Below the pieces are notes generated by a model. It ran no database searches. It saw nothing but the letters and a program-made list of their open reading frames with translations, and was not told the DNA's origin. The position numbers and the translations under genes were made by a program. This document shows, in pieces, positions 47,429 to 53,155 of a stretch of 64,000 nt of DNA. This DNA comes from Bacteroidia bacterium. Lineage in GTDB: Bacteria > Bacteroidota > Bacteroidia > UKL13-3. Every line of letters begins with the position of its first letter. Within the stretch, counting starts at the first letter, position 1. The stretch is from NCBI GenBank assembly GCA_965279165.1, contig OZ257140.1, positions 166,244 to 230,243 on the forward strand, read 5' to 3'.

Positions 47429-48136
47429 ATGAAAAAGGTAAATTTTACCGATTGGGGCTTGATCGATTATAAACAAGCCTGGGATAAACAGGAAGCTCTT
47501 TTTCAGGCAAAAACCAATTTAAAATTAGTTAACAGAAATCCGGAAACAATTCATCCCATATTACCTGTTAACGACCTTATTTTTTGCGAACATCCGCATG
47601 TATACACTTTGGGAAAAAGCGGTAAGAAAGAAAATTTACTGGTAAACGAACAACAACTCGAAGATTTAAATGCCACCTTCTACCCTATCAATCGTGGTGG
47701 CGATATCACTTACCATGGTCCTGGACAAATTGTAGGCTATCCAATTTTTGACCTGGAACAATTTTATACCGATATACACCGCTATTTAAGAACCCTTGAA
47801 GAAGCAATCATCCTAACCATTGCCGAATACGGAATAAAAGGAGAACGGTTAGAAGGTTATACAGGAGTTTGGCTGGATACACACGACGACACCAAAGCAC
47901 GTAAAATTTGTGCCATGGGAGTGCGATGCAGCCGTTGGGTAACCATGCATGGATTTGCTTTTAATGTGAATACCGATCTCTCCTATTTTAAACATATTGT
48001 ACCGTGTGGAATTGATGATAAAGCTGTGACTAGTATGCAGCACGAGTTAGGTAAAGAAATTTCTATGGAGGAAGTGAAACAGAAATTATTGGGGCATTTG
48101 ATGGAGTTGTTTGGAGGAGAATACCAATTGAAATAA
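47429..48136 (+). CDS. lipB: Lipoyl(octanoyl) transferase
   Basis: [12 protein letters not shown] motif and catalytic Cys/Lys region. Confidence 0.9.
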
Positions 48137-48153
48137 TATAAGTAAGATATTTG

Positions 48154-48440
48154 GATCTTGAGTTGCAAACTCAAGATAGCGGGGGCTTGGTTCTTGTGGT
48201 GTTTGGAGTTTAGTACGATTAGATTTTTTATAATAACGAGTTAAGTTTATCGGCAATAACACGTGTGTTGCTTAAACGAGGTACTTTGTTTTGTCCGCCT
48301 AGCTTACGAATTAATGGAGATAATCTAAGTTAGGTATTTGATCTTGAGTTGGAAACACAAGATAGCCGTGAGCTTACGAATTAATGGAGTATATTTATTA
48401 AAGTGATTTGATTGAAATTGAGTTACAAACACAAGATAGC
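48154..48440. repeat. Three copies of a hairpin-containing 27-bp repeat (GATCTTGAGTTGCAAACTCAAGATAGC and two variants) interleaved with AGCTTACGAATTAATGGAG x2
   Basis: Copies at 48154-48180 (perfect CTTGAGTT-GCAA-AACTCAAG hairpin), 48340-48366 and 48416-48440. Confidence 0.85.
48264..48304 (+). repeat. Left direct repeat of islet 2 (duplicate of GH3 gene 3' end)
   Basis: GTGTGTTGCTTAAACGAGGTACTTTGTTTTGTCCGCCTAGC. About 93% identical to 50147-50190. Its reverse complement encodes LGGQNKVPRLSNTR, matching the GH3 C-terminus. Confidence 0.85.
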
Positions 48441-48579
48441 ACAGGGCGGAGGTAAATAGCACATCACATTATATTTGATAATTTTCAGTTGTTTCATTAA
48501 AAATAAACAATAGTTTTACTTATCAGTTTTAACTTAATTTATCATAGTTTGTTCCTTAAAATAACTAATTATTTTTAAT

Positions 48580-49293
48580 ATGAAATTTATTAAAAGTTTA
48601 TTTAAACCAAAAAATATCTACTTCAGGATAAACATGGATATTATTGAGTTTCCTGAAGGCTGGACTCCTAAACTGGCAATACTTATTAGAAATTTGACCG
48701 AATTCGAAAAAAGAATTATTATTAATATACTCAGAATTTTACAAAGACACCTTGAACGACATTTTGTATTTTGGATGAAATTCGAATTTACAAGAATCAA
48801 GTTCAATAATGATCAATCCATTTTATTCAGAAGTTACTTTGAATTAATAATGATTGACTGGACGATAATAAGTTCTGAATTCACCAAAAGAGAAATTAGA
48901 TCTGAAGTGGGAAAATCGTTGTGGTGGATTCTATATTACTCATTTGATGGATATGACTCTATGTTATATTCTAAAAAAGTATTCAGGAACTATGAGGCAG
49001 CTTTTGAAGATAGAAGGCAACTTTATCCAGGAATATTAACGAAATTATTTAGTACTGAAAGTAGTCAAAATTTAAATTCATTAAAAATCCTTTATATTTT
49101 ATTAGTTGTGAATCCATTAGAAATTGACAAAGGTAACTTTGAAAACCAACCAAATGAACTTAAAGATCACCAAGATTTTAGTGAAATGGAAAATTGGTTC
49201 GAAAACAGATTGAATTTGTTAACTTTTGGACAAGTATTTGGAAAATCTTTAAATCACCTGAAGAGTGAAATAAATAAATTGCAATTTAAATAA
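48580..49293 (+). CDS. Hypothetical protein in AT-rich islet (237 aa)
   Basis: ORF in a segment of clearly lower GC than its surroundings. No recognisable domain. Contains RHLERH. Confidence 0.55.
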   Translation: MKFIKSLFKPKNIYFRINMDIIEFPEGWTPKLAILIRNLTEFEKRIIINILRILQRHLERHFVFWMKFEFTRIKFNNDQSILFRSYFELIMIDWTIISSEFTKREIRSEVGKSLWWILYYSFDGYDSMLYSKKVFRNYEAAFEDRRQLYPGILTKLFSTESSQNLNSLKILYILLVVNPLEIDKGNFENQPNELKDHQDFSEMENWFENRLNLLTFGQVFGKSLNHLKSEINKLQFK

Positions 49294-49388
49294 TAATGAA
49301 TCTGCTTTTCAATTAAGTTGTTCATTCAAGAAGGTTTGCCAATGATTTTTTTATTTGATAAATTCACAAAACAATTGAAATTCATATA

Positions 49389-49874
49389 ATGGGAAATTTT
49401 AAAGACTTAGAATCTGAGTTTATTGAACGGACATTGCGCCTTCTTTCACAGTATGAGGGTATAACTTACAAATACAAATTTGAAGAACAATTTAATCACA
49501 CTTTGCTTGTAAACTGTTTACTTGGATTAATTGTATTACCAAAAGAAAAGACTATTATTTATTTGCCAAATACAACCTGGAGTATGGAGTTGAAAACCAA
49601 AATGGGCATAGAAAATTCAACATTTAACAAAAATATCACTAATCTAAAAGATTTGATAATTGCATTACGACATACTGTTGCACACTTTGACATCACATTT
49701 GAATCAAAAAGTGATGAGTTTTTAATTGACTTTATAGTTTTTAAGGATAGAAAGAAAGGAAAAAACTATGTTGTCGCTTCCTTTGTACCATTAGAACTGA
49801 TTTGTTTTCTTCGATACTATGGTAATTGGTTAGTAAGTATAATTCGTGAACATCAAGGAAATATTAAATCTTAA
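49389..49874 (+). CDS. Hypothetical protein with HEPN-like Rx4H motif (161 aa)
   Basis: ALRHTVAHFD resembles the Rx4-6H motif of HEPN/Abi-type RNases. Small alpha-helical protein in the AT-rich islet. Confidence 0.5.
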   Translation: MGNFKDLESEFIERTLRLLSQYEGITYKYKFEEQFNHTLLVNCLLGLIVLPKEKTIIYLPNTTWSMELKTKMGIENSTFNKNITNLKDLIIALRHTVAHFDITFESKSDEFLIDFIVFKDRKKGKNYVVASFVPLELICFLRYYGNWLVSIIREHQGNIKS

Positions 49875-50106
49875 AATACAAATTGTTAAATAATTTAGTG
49901 AGATAAAGAAATACTTATATTTTTGTCACAAACTCATCTAGCTTAACGTAACTGTTTTTATTTCAGAGATTTTAAGACAGACTTCTATTTCGCCTATTGA
50001 TTGATAAAAGTCACTTTTTAACATCAAATTTTATCTAGGTATATATGTTGTTTAAATAACTAAAATTAATTTTAAGGTTGCGAGATAAAGTGTACATTAA
50101 ATACAT

Positions 50107-51603
50107 CTAATTTAAATAAGATTGGAGTTTATCTGCTATCGATCGTGTGTTGCTTAAACGCGGTACTTTGTTTTGTCCGCCGAGCTTTCCCTCCTGCTTC
50201 ATGTATTGAATAAATGTAGATTTCTGTAGTGACCTAATTTTTAATGGCTGTAGGATATTACCGGCAATTAAATCTTTGTAGTATATGTTTCGTTCTTGCA
50301 TTTTCACATCTACTTCCTTTGCGAATGAATGAATATCGTCGGGTTTGTTTTCAAATTCAACAAACCATTCGTGGTATGGTAAACCTCCCTCAGGTGGATT
50401 AACTTGTGGAGCAACAGTAAACTCTATAATATTGATTTTGTATTTATTTGCTACCGAAAGCAAGGCCTGTTCTACCTCTTCGCCGATTACATGTTCGCCG
50501 AATGCGGAAATAAAATGCTTGATTCGTCCGGTAACAACAATACGAGGCGGATTAAGCGAAACAAATTTAATGGTATCGCCAATACTGTAACCGAAGAGTC
50601 CGGCATTGGTATTCATGATAAGGGCATAATTACAATCCAGCTTTACTTCTCCAAGGTGTAACCGGGCAGGATTTGGGTTGAAATATTCTTCCGTAGGAAT
50701 GAATTCATAAAAGATGCCGTTGTTGGTCAACAGCAACAAACCCTTCTCTTCACGGGTATCCTGATAGGCAATAAATCCTTCGGAAGCCGGATAGGTTTCG
50801 AGGGTATCAATCCTGGTTCCTATGGCATTTTCGATCTTAGCCCGATAGGGTTCAAAATTTACCCCACCATACACAAAAAGTTTAAAGTTGGGAAAAACAT
50901 CCTTTATTTTCTTTCCAGTTAGTGAAGTTATTTTATCGAAATACATCTGCACCCAAGGCGGAATACCACTTATCAATGTCATGTTTTGGTGGATGGTTTC
51001 GTTTACCACCGCATCCACTTTTTCTTCCCAATCCTCGATACAATTTGTAGGAAACGAAGGCAACTGATTTCCTTTTAGGTAACCCGGCACATGGTGGTTT
51101 ACGATACCACTTAATCGTCCAACCGGAATACCATTTTTGGATTCCAATGCCGGACTACCGGATAAAAATATCAGTTTACCATTTAAAAAATCTGCTTTAC
51201 CGGTTTCGGCGATATATGCTAGCAAAGCGTTTCGAGCCGATTGAATATGAAACGGAATAGAATCCTTGGTGATAGGAATATATTTTACTCCGGAAGTAGT
51301 ACCTGAAGTCTTGCTCCAATAAGCCGGTTTGCCGGGCCAAAGGATATCCGCTTTGCCGGAAATTGCTTCATCGATATATGGTTTTAAATCTTCGTAATCA
51401 ATAACCGGGACTTGTTGTTTAAAATCATCATATGTTTTAATGGTTTGAAATGAATGATCGATTCCAAATTTTGTTTGAGAGGCAATGGCAACCAATTTAT
51501 GCATCCAATCCAATTGAAAGGAAACAGCTATGGCGCTTTGCCGTTTTACCTTGTTGGTTATAAAACGAGCAAATGGTATGGCCAGAATTGATTTTAAACC
51601 CAT
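50107..51603 (-). CDS. GH3 family (acyl-adenylate-forming, auxin-responsive-GH3-like) protein
   Basis: KTSGTTSG adenylation motif and overall GH3 architecture. Start at MGLKSIL. An alternative upstream Met lies at 51630. Confidence 0.8.
   Translation of the reverse strand: MGLKSILAIPFARFITNKVKRQSAIAVSFQLDWMHKLVAIASQTKFGIDHSFQTIKTYDDFKQQVPVIDYEDLKPYIDEAISGKADILWPGKPAYWSKTSGTTSGVKYIPITKDSIPFHIQSARNALLAYIAETGKADFLNGKLIFLSGSPALESKNGIPVGRLSGIVNHHVPGYLKGNQLPSFPTNCIEDWEEKVDAVVNETIHQNMTLISGIPPWVQMYFDKITSLTGKKIKDVFPNFKLFVYGGVNFEPYRAKIENAIGTRIDTLETYPASEGFIAYQDTREEKGLLLLTNNGIFYEFIPTEEYFNPNPARLHLGEVKLDCNYALIMNTNAGLFGYSIGDTIKFVSLNPPRIVVTGRIKHFISAFGEHVIGEEVEQALLSVANKYKINIIEFTVAPQVNPPEGGLPYHEWFVEFENKPDDIHSFAKEVDVKMQERNIYYKDLIAGNILQPLKIRSLQKSTFIQYMKQEGKLGGQNKVPRLSNTRSIADKLQSYLN
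50147..50190 (+). repeat. Right direct repeat of islet 2 (native 3' end of GH3 gene)
   Basis: CGTGTGTTGCTTAAACGCGGTACTTTGTTTTGTCCGCCGAGCTT overlaps the last 14 codons of the GH3 CDS. Confidence 0.85.
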
Positions 51604-51860
51604 AAAACAAAGGTGCAAATTGTGTATCAATATTTAACTATCGCTTTTTCGAAATAATTCAAATTTGATTGTTTGGGCTATTTTAGCTACTCAGGTTTAA
51701 GTACTAAATGTTCTGGTACTGTGTGTTTAGTTATCGTGTTGCATCAATTGCATTTACAAAGCATTATATGAGGGATATTTCGCCCTTTCAGGGCTTTGAA
51801 CTTCGGTTGTACTTTTTACATCCGGCTACACCGGATGTTTAGAAATGTCGCCCTAACAGG

Positions 51861-51905
51861 GCTGCATACGACTTGGTCTTTTATTACTGCCTAGAAAGTT
51901 TGGAT
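51861..51905 (+). repeat. Left direct repeat of islet 3
   Basis: GCTGCATACGACTTGGTCTTTTATTACTGC...CTAGAAAGTTTGGA. About 80% identical, with one indel, to 52848-52902. Confidence 0.7.
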
Positions 51906-52041
51906 ACAACGCCTTTAAGGGTTGCTAGGCGTCAACTTAAATACCTAACTATAAAATTAGTTTCCAAATATAGAAACTTTTATTACCTTTGTTTAAGACT
52001 ATGAATAAAATGTATGAATGAGATTCTTTGAAACGAGATTT

Positions 52042-52359
52042 ATGGAAGAAGCGAACGAGTTTATTTCGAAACTAGATAGAAAGTCAATTCGTAAGATTTT
52101 CTATAACATCGACCTTGCCGAACAAACCAATGATCCCAAATTGTTTAAAAAACTTCAAAACGATATCTGGGAACTTAGAACAAAATTTGGTGGACTACAG
52201 ATTCGGCTTTTAGCCTTCTGGGACAAGACAGACAATAAGAAAACACTGGTAATAGCGACACATGGCTTTGTGAAAAAGGTCGACAAAATTCCAGCTAATG
52301 AAATTGAAAGAGCAAGCAGACTTAGAGATAAATATTTTGAAAACAAACGTAAAGACTAA
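52042..52359 (+). CDS. Type II TA toxin, Gp49-like/HigB-RelE family
   Basis: IWELRTKFGGLQIRLLAFWDK...LVIATHGFVKK matches the phage Gp49-like RelE/HigB fold. Start chosen at MEEANEF. Confidence 0.65.
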   Translation: MEEANEFISKLDRKSIRKIFYNIDLAEQTNDPKLFKKLQNDIWELRTKFGGLQIRLLAFWDKTDNKKTLVIATHGFVKKVDKIPANEIERASRLRDKYFENKRKD

Positions 52360-52363
52360 TCAT

Positions 52364-52690
52364 ATGGCAACCAAAAAAATGAAGACTTATTCACTTGCCG
52401 AAATGAAAGACAAATTCATCGGTAAGGTTGGAACAACAGAACGTGACGATTATGAATACGAGCTTAGAATGGACGTTTTAGGAAAGATGATTAAAACTGC
52501 TAGACTAGAAAGACATTTGACACAAGAAGAACTTGGAAAATTAATTGGTGTTCAAAAAGCTCAAATATCCAAATTAGAAAGCAGTGCAAATAGCGCAACC
52601 ATTGATACAGTTATAAAAGTATTTAAAGCATTGAAAGCAGAAATCAACTTCAATGTCAAAATTGAAGACGACTATTTGACTCTTGCGTAA
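52364..52690 (+). CDS. HTH XRE-family antitoxin (HigA-like)
   Basis: HTH segment LTQEELGKLIGVQKAQISKLE. Lies immediately downstream of the toxin. Start chosen at MATKKMK. Confidence 0.65.
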   Translation: MATKKMKTYSLAEMKDKFIGKVGTTERDDYEYELRMDVLGKMIKTARLERHLTQEELGKLIGVQKAQISKLESSANSATIDTVIKVFKALKAEINFNVKIEDDYLTLA

Positions 52691-52847
52691 GAAAAGCCGA
52701 ACGCCTAACAGCAAGACAGCGCAATTTTTGCTATCTTTATGCAAAGCTACACTTTATGCAAAATGGAGCGAAAACAGCGGCTTGCAAAACGTTTAACATG
52801 GAATGTTATTCGTTTATATCGGATGCTTGCATTGGCGCCTTTACAGT

Positions 52848-52902
52848 GCTGTATACGACTTAGTCTTTTACTGCTGTTATATGGCAACCTAGAAGGTTTG
52901 GA
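52848..52902 (+). repeat. Right direct repeat of islet 3
   Basis: GCTGTATACGACTTAGTCTTTTACTGCTGTTATATGGCAACCTAGAAGGTTTGGA. Confidence 0.7.
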
Positions 52903-53155
52903 AAGGTCGACCTTTACGGTTAATAAAAGATATACGGTAAGCACCGCTTTACATCAAACGATCTATTTGTATACTTGAATAGCCGATGATAGCATGATTT
53001 CGTCTATATCTTACCATATCTTATTGAATATATTATGTAAATAGGATAAGTTCAATATTGATATGGATTATTACTATAAACTTCCATTCATAATTCCAGT
53101 CAAAAGATTTAACTATTTTTAAAATCATATTCTGTGACTATATTGATTTTTTTTC

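What the first reader, a model, noticed from the sequence alone, without database searches (positions are those of the whole stretch)
48137..50190. AT-rich two-gene islet inserted at the 3' end of a GH3 gene, bounded by 42-bp direct repeats and carrying a HEPN-like protein
The last 14 codons of the minus-strand GH3 gene (50147-50190) are duplicated at 48264-48304. Its reverse complement there still encodes LGGQNKVPRLSNTR. About 1.85 kb lies between the repeats, with clearly lower GC than the flanking core genes lipB and GH3. That segment holds a 237-aa protein of no recognisable family and a 161-aa protein with ALRHTVAHFD (Rx4H, HEPN/Abi-like). Duplication of a gene 3' end that restores the reading frame is the hallmark of site-specific integration, yet no integrase is present. 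Three hairpin repeats (CTTGAGTTGCAAACTCAAG) precede the insert. This is a candidate miniature defence or abortive-infection islet, or a novel toxin pair, mobilised in trans.
Basis: partly seen in the sequence, partly recalled or inferred. Interest (0 to 1): 0.75.

Follow-up and report, generated by a model that had tools for sequence, protein, structure and literature searches.

The report
Integrase-less HEPN islet at GH3 end
A 1.9-kb AT-rich piece of foreign DNA carrying a predicted HEPN RNase and a rare unknown protein sits at the 3' end of a GH3 gene and brought its own copy of that gene end; it is a real but fairly ordinary remnant of horizontal gene transfer.

Summary
The last 15 codons of GH3 occur twice (42/45 nt identical). 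The similarity runs on for 86 nt, and the displaced left copy still encodes a full alternative C-terminus with a stop codon. The DNA between the copies is 27% GC, against 38-39% in the flanks. The only syntenic relative found (L015) has lipB and GH3 270 bp apart with no genes between.

The 161-aa protein is a clear HEPN of Pfam family PF18736 (pEK499_p136), with an invariant Rx4H motif. The 237-aa protein belongs to a rare all-alpha family (21 representatives among 1.8 billion proteins) of unknown fold and function.

No integrase lies in the islet or in the 26 window ORFs I tested. The anatomy fits a single-crossover (Campbell-type) insertion that imported a replacement gene end. It now looks like a decayed, att-flanked element of the CIME kind.

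The "toxin pair" idea is weak. The closest HEPN homologues have unrelated neighbours, and the 237-aa partner is not a nucleotidyltransferase. One lead remains: its closest homologue lies beside an AbiU2-type HEPN in another AT-rich islet.

Of the three "hairpins", only the first precedes the insert. The other two are degenerate copies inside it. Defence function and mobilisation in trans are untested.

The parts
47429..48136 (+). lipB (octanoyltransferase), left core-gene flank
   Evidence: Pfam LplA-B_cat E 4.8e-50. It is 75% identical to the L015 ortholog, in the same gene order.
48131..48180 (.). H1 unit: the sequence directly after the lipB stop codon, containing a perfect palindrome (48155-48177; 10-bp stem, 3-nt loop)
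   Evidence: fold z -2.6 on + and -4.2 on -. It has no U-tract. No other copies occur in the 64-kb window apart from units 2 and 3.
48228..48305 (-). Displaced GH3 3' end: 25 codons plus stop (KLGGQNKVPRLSNTRVIADKLNSLL*), no longer attached to a gene
   Evidence: Its differences from the working end fall 3:2:11 on codon positions 1:2:3 (chi-square p 0.010).
48261..48305 (.). Left copy of the direct-repeat core (att-like)
   Evidence: 42/45 nt identical to 50143-50187. No chance matches in shuffles.
48301..48370 (.). Unit 2: the 19-mer AGCTTACGAATTAATGGAG followed by a degenerate copy of the H unit (43/52 identical to H1)
48371..48445 (.). Unit 3: the same 19-mer (19/19) followed by a more degenerate H copy. 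It is preceded by CCGTG, which resembles the right end of the core.
   Evidence: The rest of the unit is only 38/56 identical to unit 2.
48580..49293 (+). 237-aa protein of a rare all-alpha family with unknown function
49389..49874 (+). 161-aa HEPN protein of the pEK499_p136 family; predicted RNase with R94-x4-H99
49875..50106 (.). AT-rich non-coding tail of the insert, running up to the imported GH3 stop codon
   Evidence: Only ORFs of 29 aa or fewer. GC is about 24-27%.
50143..50187 (.). Right copy of the direct-repeat core, inside the working GH3 gene
50107..51630 (-). GH3-family gene. Its last 11 codons plus stop (50107-50142) differ from the displaced copy and were probably supplied by the insert.
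   Evidence: Pfam GH3 N, M and C domains. NCBIfam OlsH-like at 392 bits, below the 620 cutoff. Tail translation.

Best explanation
About 1.85 kb of foreign, AT-rich DNA (roughly 48306-50142) entered the convergent lipB/GH3 junction. It did so by a single-crossover (Campbell-type) recombination within the highly conserved last 15 codons of GH3.

The incoming DNA carried its own GH3 3' end (core plus an 11-codon tail and stop). GH3 therefore stayed intact, and the resident tail was pushed 1.9 kb away, where it survives as an orphan.

The element has no recombinase of its own. It is best read as a decayed att-flanked integrative element (CIME-like), or as an islet moved by a recombinase encoded elsewhere. 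The two units at its left end begin with an identical 19-mer but are otherwise diverged, and the second is preceded by a core-like remnant. This suggests two related elements accreted in tandem and were then mostly deleted.

The cargo is two independent genes. One is a stand-alone HEPN (pEK499_p136 family) that most likely acts as a dimeric metal-independent RNase in a conflict role (abortive-infection-like defence or addiction toxin). The other is a rare all-alpha protein of unknown role.

Shown here: the repeats, the composition, the empty site in a relative, HEPN membership and the absence of an integrase. Inferred: the recombination mechanism, which tail is native, RNase activity, and any defence role.
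For: - Repeat and alternative C-terminus.
- Differences between the two gene ends are concentrated at third codon positions (3:2:11, p 0.010). This fits two ends that diverged mostly while both were coding, that is, in separate genomes.
- GC is 26.9% in the insert against 38-39% in the flanks.
- L015 keeps the order miaA-terC-lipB-GH3-DUF6798 gene, with a 270-bp lipB/GH3 spacer and no genes between.
- The 19-mer AGCTTACGAATTAATGGAG is identical in units 2 and 3 while the rest of those units is 38/56 identical.
- HEPN assignment.
- The HEPN family is linked to R-M and Pgl operons and to mobile elements in PMC3710099. It sits on 743 enterobacterial plasmids and in variable, defence-like neighbourhoods.
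- No recombinase domain was found in 26 window ORFs.
- CIME definition: PMC5704250.
Against: - No full-length relative of the element with an integrase was found, and no circular form or attP.
- Only one syntenic relative exists, and it is distant (GH3 68%, lipB 75% identity). 'Empty site' therefore cannot be told apart from ancient loss on that evidence alone.
- The left end of the insert (units 2 and 3) resembles the sequence just after lipB (43/52 identical). A classical attP arm does not predict this. It points instead to DNA copied from an occupied lipB-GH3 locus of a relative.
- At synonymous sites alone, the contrast between core and tail is not significant (3 of 15 codons against 4 of 7 conserved codons; my count).
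- Among 80 GH3 loci from other species, only one (L023) has any duplication of the gene end. GH3 is therefore not a widely used att site.
- No PADLOC hit and no experimental data exist for this HEPN family.
Confidence: 0.5

Rival explanations
1. No dedicated recombinase was involved. A fragment of the homologous but occupied lipB-GH3 locus of a related bacterium (lipB-proximal unit, cargo, GH3 end) circularised or invaded. It then integrated by RecA-type recombination within the roughly 45-86 bp of GH3-end homology, together with an illegitimate junction (AGCTT|ACGAATT). This duplicated the resident intergenic region instead of replacing it.
For: - The insert carries look-alikes of both flanks. 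A GH3 end lies at its right side, and lipB-proximal H units lie at its left (43/52 identical to the sequence after the lipB stop).
- The Gp49/HTH pair on the other side of GH3 is also bounded by about 170-nt imperfect repeats of local sequence. This hints at a general duplicative-insertion process at this locus.
- recA is present in the window.
- No integrase was found.
Against: - The 19-mer junction is exactly repeated in two otherwise diverged units. Reproducible junctions are not expected from illegitimate joining.
- Very short homology makes such events rare.
- A clean double crossover would be the usual outcome between relatives.
Confidence: 0.28
2. An in-situ tandem duplication of the whole convergent junction (GH3 end, spacer, hairpin, lipB end) happened first, as seen in Pedobacter sp. 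22163. The cargo was inserted into the GH3-proximal copy later by an unrelated event, and the copies then drifted apart.
For: - L023 has a 160-nt tandem duplication (97% identical) of the GH3 3' end plus the downstream hairpin. It begins at the same GKLGG codon.
- The order of pieces in the window matches two such units.
Against: - The tails are only 20/33 identical while the cores are 42/45 (Fisher p 0.0006).
- The differences are biased to third codon positions, and the orphan copy keeps an intact reading frame and stop codon. Neither is expected for a non-coding copy drifting freely.
- This model leaves the entry of the cargo unexplained.
Confidence: 0.12
3. The two genes are a functional two-component module: a HEPN toxin or effector plus the 237-aa protein as antitoxin, sensor or regulator. 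That would make it a new HEPN-partner system.
For: - The closest homologue of the 237-aa protein (P0086, 43% identity) lies 41 nt downstream of an AbiU2-type HEPN gene. Both sit in an AT-rich two-gene islet (33-34% GC against 44-45% in the flanks) after dnaE in L088.
- So 2 of about 5 informative contexts of this rare family are adjacent to a HEPN gene.
Against: - The HEPN families and the gene order differ between the two cases.
- The closest pEK499_p136 homologues (L099 79%, L100 71%, L095, L001-L003) have unrelated neighbours.
- Other members of the 237-aa family (L086, L091) have no recognisable HEPN next to them.
- The two genes are 95 nt apart.
Confidence: 0.18
4. It is not an insertion. 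The genes are ancestral at this site and were lost in the L015 lineage.
For: Only one syntenic comparator is available, and it is distant.
Against: The duplicated gene end, the 11-point GC drop, and the rarity and patchy distribution of both cargo families.
Confidence: 0.04

Closest known systems
CIMEs (cis-mobilizable elements): decayed ICE/IME remnants that keep attL and attR, for example at the 3' end of fda in Streptococcus thermophilus (definition in PMC5704250)
   Same: - Flanked by direct repeats that include the 3' end of a protein-coding target gene.
- The gene is restored by element-borne sequence.
- It has no integration or transfer genes.
- It shows signs of tandem accretion.
   Different: - No related full-length ICE or IME is known here.
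- The host phylum is Bacteroidota.
- It is only 1.85 kb with two cargo genes.
- The left arm resembles the opposite flank of the target site.
- Mobilisation has not been shown.
pEK499_p136 family of HEPN domains (Pfam PF18736; Anantharaman et al. 2013, PMC3710099)
   Same: A full-length match with the invariant Rx4H motif, and a small single-domain protein found on mobile or variable DNA.
   Different: The described associations (R-M, ART/Macro, NamA-like nuclease, Pgl) are absent here. On enterobacterial plasmids the gene is followed by a conserved 259-aa protein that is unrelated to the 237-aa protein here.
HEPN-MNT toxin-antitoxin modules (for example SO_3166/SO_3165, PDB 5yep, 7ae2)
   Different: The partner is not a nucleotidyltransferase. 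It is all-alpha with no MNT hit. The genes do not overlap, and the HEPN subfamily is different.
Defence or accessory 'hotspot' islets between conserved core genes
   Same: A small AT-rich accessory module between two conserved housekeeping genes. A second module (a HigB/Gp49-HTH pair) lies on the other side of the same gene, and both are absent from a syntenic relative.
   Different: Here an explicit duplication of a gene end marks the insertion, and no known defence system is recognised.

Membership tests
HEPN superfamily, pEK499_p136 family (PF18736) | Match to the family HMM above the curated threshold over the full domain | tested here: met
   E 1.1e-26, 93.8 bits against a cutoff of 26.6; residues 1-146 align to profile positions 1-143 of 152.
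HEPN superfamily, pEK499_p136 family (PF18736) | Conserved Rx4-6H catalytic motif | tested here: met
   R94 and H99 (ALRHTVAH) are invariant across 19 and 28 homologues, including plasmid members.
HEPN superfamily, pEK499_p136 family (PF18736) | HEPN alpha-helical bundle fold | tested here: met
HEPN superfamily, pEK499_p136 family (PF18736) | RNase activity | not testable with these tools
   This needs biochemistry. No member of the family has been characterised in the literature searched.
HEPN-MNT toxin-antitoxin system | Adjacent minimal nucleotidyltransferase (MNT) partner | tested here: not met
Site-specific integrative element or its remnant (CIME) | [quoted passage not shown] | tested here: met
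   42/45-nt core plus a full alternative GH3 tail.
Site-specific integrative element or its remnant (CIME) | Absence of its own integration and transfer genes (this defines a CIME as opposed to an ICE or IME) | tested here: met
   There are only two ORFs of 50 aa or more on the coding strand, and neither is a recombinase. None was found in 26 window ORFs.
Site-specific integrative element or its remnant (CIME) | Descent from, or recombination by, an element that has a cognate integrase and the same att core | tested here: inconclusive
   The core was not found in IMG/VR. Among 80 GH3 loci, only L023 has a duplicated end, and it has no integrase between the copies.
Site-specific integrative element or its remnant (CIME) | Excision or mobilisation | not testable with these tools
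   This needs read-level or experimental data.
Integron cassette or attC array | Each cassette is bounded by attC sites, with intI/attI nearby | tested here: not met
   The 23-nt palindromes lie only on the left side, and two of the three are degenerate. No integrase was found.
Known anti-phage defence systems (PADLOC-DB v2) | HMM match of the components | tested here: not met
   No PADLOC family hit for either protein at E up to 1. No PHROG hit either.

The most novel reading that the evidence does not exclude
The 237-aa all-alpha family may be a previously unrecognised partner (antitoxin, sensor or regulator) that pairs interchangeably with different HEPN nucleases. Here it sits with pEK499_p136, and in L088 with AbiU2. 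Together these would form tiny AT-rich two-gene islets that lodge at the 3' ends of essential genes and move without their own recombinase. For this one, a conserved 19-mer and hairpin next to a mimic of the gene end would serve as the recombination signal.
Probability: 0.12. Interest if true: 0.6.

Novelty: new member of a known kind. Interest (0 to 1): 0.3.

Why it matters
This is a clean, small example of how accessory conflict genes reach a core-gene junction in Bacteroidota while keeping the target gene intact. It adds a chromosomal Bacteroidota context to a HEPN family known mostly from enterobacterial plasmids. It also flags a rare, confidently folded protein family with no known relatives that sits next to HEPN genes twice. 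If that link, or an integrase-independent insertion route, were confirmed, it would be of moderate interest to people working on defence systems and mobile elements. As it stands it is an annotation-level finding.

Tried and rejected
- **Exact-protein contig look-up for the window's HEPN.** It is not on record, so the source genome and its close relatives could not be fetched.
- **Genome scan with GH3.** The best hit is only 71% identical, and only L015 is syntenic.
- **Metagenome scan with the 237-aa family.** The 5-sequence alignment returned one 1.3-kb contig.
- **IMG/VR scans.** Scans for the att core, the HEPN protein and the 237-aa family found nothing.
- **Phage collection.** No hit for either protein.
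- **Plasmid collection.** No hit for the 237-aa protein.
- **Rfam on 47-54 kb.** No match.
- **tRNA search.** None in the window, so this is not a tRNA-targeting island.
- **The afdb50 fold library.** It was unavailable.
- **Hairpin motif and 19-mer.** Both are absent from the rest of the window and from all fetched loci, so they are not a genome-wide REP-type repeat on this evidence.
- **A conserved partner for the HEPN.** I looked by profile and BLAST comparisons of neighbours and found none.
- **Flanking repeats around the L088 islet.** None found.
- **A sigma-70 promoter or intrinsic terminator reading of the hairpins.** Rejected: the counts are at shuffle level and there is no U-tract.
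Full report
**1. What is there**

lipB (47429-48136, +) and a GH3-family gene (50107-51630, -) converge. Between them lie 1,970 bp.

The last 15 codons of GH3 occur twice. 48261-48305 and 50143-50187 share 42/45 nt. A 37-mer spanning them has no chance matches in shuffles. The similarity extends to 86 nt at 78%.

Read on the minus strand, the left copy encodes KLGGQNKVPRLSNTRVIADKLNSLL*. The working gene ends KLGGQNKVPRLSNTRSIADKLQSYLN*. An entire alternative C-terminus with its stop codon is therefore stranded 1.9 kb from the gene.

The intervening DNA is 26.9% GC, against 38.6% (lipB), 39.2% (GH3) and 37.7% (window).

**2. Fine anatomy**

Directly after the lipB stop lies a roughly 50-nt unit with a perfect 10-bp-stem palindrome (H1, 48155-48177). 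It is followed by a spacer and then the orphan GH3 end.

Immediately right of the left core are two units, 48301-48370 and 48371-48445. Each starts with the identical 19-mer AGCTTACGAATTAATGGAG. Each then continues with a degenerate copy of the H unit. Unit 2 is 43/52 identical to H1. Units 2 and 3 are 38/56 identical outside the 19-mer. Unit 3 is preceded by CCGTG, which resembles the right end of the core.

Only H1 folds significantly better than shuffled sequence.

The two ORFs follow (48580-49293 and 49389-49874, both +). After them comes 232 nt of AT-rich non-coding DNA running up to the GH3 stop.

**3. Is it an insertion?**

A GH3 scan of one genome per species gave 80 loci. Only L015, a Bacteroidia MAG, keeps the gene order miaA-terC-lipB-GH3-DUF6798 gene. 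Identities there are lipB 75%, terC 83% and GH3 68%. In L015, lipB and GH3 are 270 bp apart, with hairpins but no genes between them.

Together with the GC drop and the duplicated gene end, this supports an insertion. The comparator is distant and single, so the empty site is supportive rather than decisive.

**4. How did it get in?**

A 45-86-nt duplication is far too long for a transposase target duplication. It is the signature of a single-crossover (Campbell-type) insertion of DNA that carried a GH3 end.

The 16 differences between the two ends fall 3:2:11 on codon positions 1:2:3 (chi-square p 0.010). All three core differences are synonymous, and the orphan keeps an open frame and a stop codon. 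This fits two orthologous gene ends that diverged while both were coding, one native and one imported. It fits less well with an in-situ duplication that then drifted.

Core and tail identity differ sharply (42/45 against 20/33, Fisher p 0.0006). Part of that contrast is simply protein-level constraint, because GGQNKVPRLSN is invariant across Bacteroidota GH3.

Two mechanistic variants remain.

- **(a) Site-specific integration by a recombinase encoded elsewhere or since lost, giving a CIME-like remnant (definition in PMC5704250).** The exactly repeated 19-mer in two otherwise diverged units favours this, as does the core-like remnant before unit 3. Both look like tandem accretion of two related elements followed by deletion.
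- **(b) Recombinase-independent insertion of a fragment from an occupied lipB-GH3 locus of a relative.** This is favoured because the left end of the insert resembles the lipB-proximal flank, which a classical attP arm does not predict.

No integrase, transposase or other recombinase domain occurs in the islet or in the 26 window ORFs I scanned. No tRNA gene is present. The core is absent from IMG/VR.

Among the 80 other GH3 loci, only Pedobacter sp. 22163 (L023) has a duplicated GH3 end. It is a 160-nt tandem repeat (97% identical) of the gene end plus hairpin, and it starts at the same GKLGG codon. That coincidence could mean the position is recombination-prone. It could equally be chance.

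**5. The cargo**

The family was defined computationally and linked to R-M, ART/Macro, NamA-like nuclease and Pgl operons (PMC3710099). I found no experimental work on it. It has no PADLOC, PHROG or NCBIfam model hit and no phage hit. It does occur on 743 plasmids, where a conserved 259-aa gene follows it.

In Bacteroidota and metagenome contigs its neighbours are all different. They include a Zn-ribbon protein with its own Rx4H, a PsbP-like protein, and a ThiF/JAB/MBL cluster. The 79%-identical homologue in L099 shares DNA similarity only across the ORF. It therefore behaves as a single-gene module in variable regions.

Its closest homologue (43% identity) lies 41 nt after an AbiU2-type HEPN gene, in another AT-rich two-gene islet downstream of dnaE (L088). 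Other members have no recognisable HEPN neighbour. This is a lead for a functional link with HEPN nucleases, not evidence of one.

**6. Comparison and verdict**

The thing works like, and most resembles, a decayed att-flanked integrative element (CIME) or a hotspot islet carrying a stand-alone HEPN conflict gene.

- Membership of the HEPN family is established.
- Membership of HEPN-MNT TA systems, integron cassettes and known defence systems was tested and not met.
- Membership of 'site-specific element' is met for the repeats and for the absence of an integrase. It is untested for a cognate recombinase and for mobility.

It is a new member of a known kind and of modest interest. The functional and mobility claims go beyond the evidence.

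Noticed in passing
window 51760-52930 (genes 52018-52359 and 52298/52365-52690): A Gp49/HigB-like toxin gene (Pfam Gp49, E 1e-15) and an HTH_3 antitoxin-like gene lie between the GH3 start and the DUF6798 gene. They are absent from the syntenic L015, where that gap is 138 nt. The pair is bounded by imperfect direct repeats of about 170 nt at 75% identity (best stretch 44 nt at 82%: 51846-51889 and 52833-52876). Only these two copies occur in the window. GH3 is therefore flanked on both sides by small two-gene accessory modules with duplicated flanks.
   Followed up: partly
L023 9417-9736 (Pedobacter sp. 22163): A perfect tandem duplication (160-nt unit, 97% identical) of the GH3 3' end plus its downstream 18-bp-stem hairpin. 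It begins at the same GKLGG codon as the repeat in the window, and nothing is inserted between the copies.
   Followed up: partly
L088 1030-2443 (JGI metagenome 3300034058): An AT-rich (33-34% GC against 44-45% in the flanks) two-gene islet directly after the 3' end of dnaE. It holds an AbiU2-type HEPN followed by the closest homologue (43%) of the window's 237-aa protein, then a PIN fragment. No flanking direct repeats were found.
   Followed up: partly
L097 4001-5293 and L098 4001-5283 (Klebsiella and Leclercia plasmids): On enterobacterial plasmids (743 records) the pEK499_p136 HEPN gene is followed 12 nt later by a conserved 259-aa hypothetical protein. Further downstream lie a gene of about 500-530 aa and a DUF4238 gene. 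This looks like a conserved, uncharacterised plasmid module.
   Followed up: no
L002 430-1431 and L003 6549-7262: Genes next to pEK499_p136 homologues carry their own Rx4H motifs (KRHLLAH with a weak RiboL-PSP HEPN hit; RNKLIH). HEPN genes therefore seem to cluster in these variable regions.
   Followed up: no
L095 256-4980: One HEPN homologue lies at the end of a cluster of metallo-beta-lactamase, ThiF(E1) and JAB-domain genes, plus two unknown genes. The context resembles a ubiquitin-like or CBASS-accessory defence system.
   Followed up: no
L015 9500-9770: The empty lipB/GH3 spacer of the relative contains its own pair of repeated hairpins (GAATCGCGC(A/T)TTCGGAGATGCGCT) and a third hairpin. 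These are unrelated in sequence to the window's H units.
   Followed up: no
window 50147-50176: On the plus strand, the conserved GH3 core itself scores as a terminator-like hairpin followed by a T-run (GTGTTGCTTAAACGCGGTAC TTTGTTTTGT). It could stop transcripts that enter GH3 from the lipB or islet side. It is the only such site in 47.9-50.4 kb.
   Followed up: no
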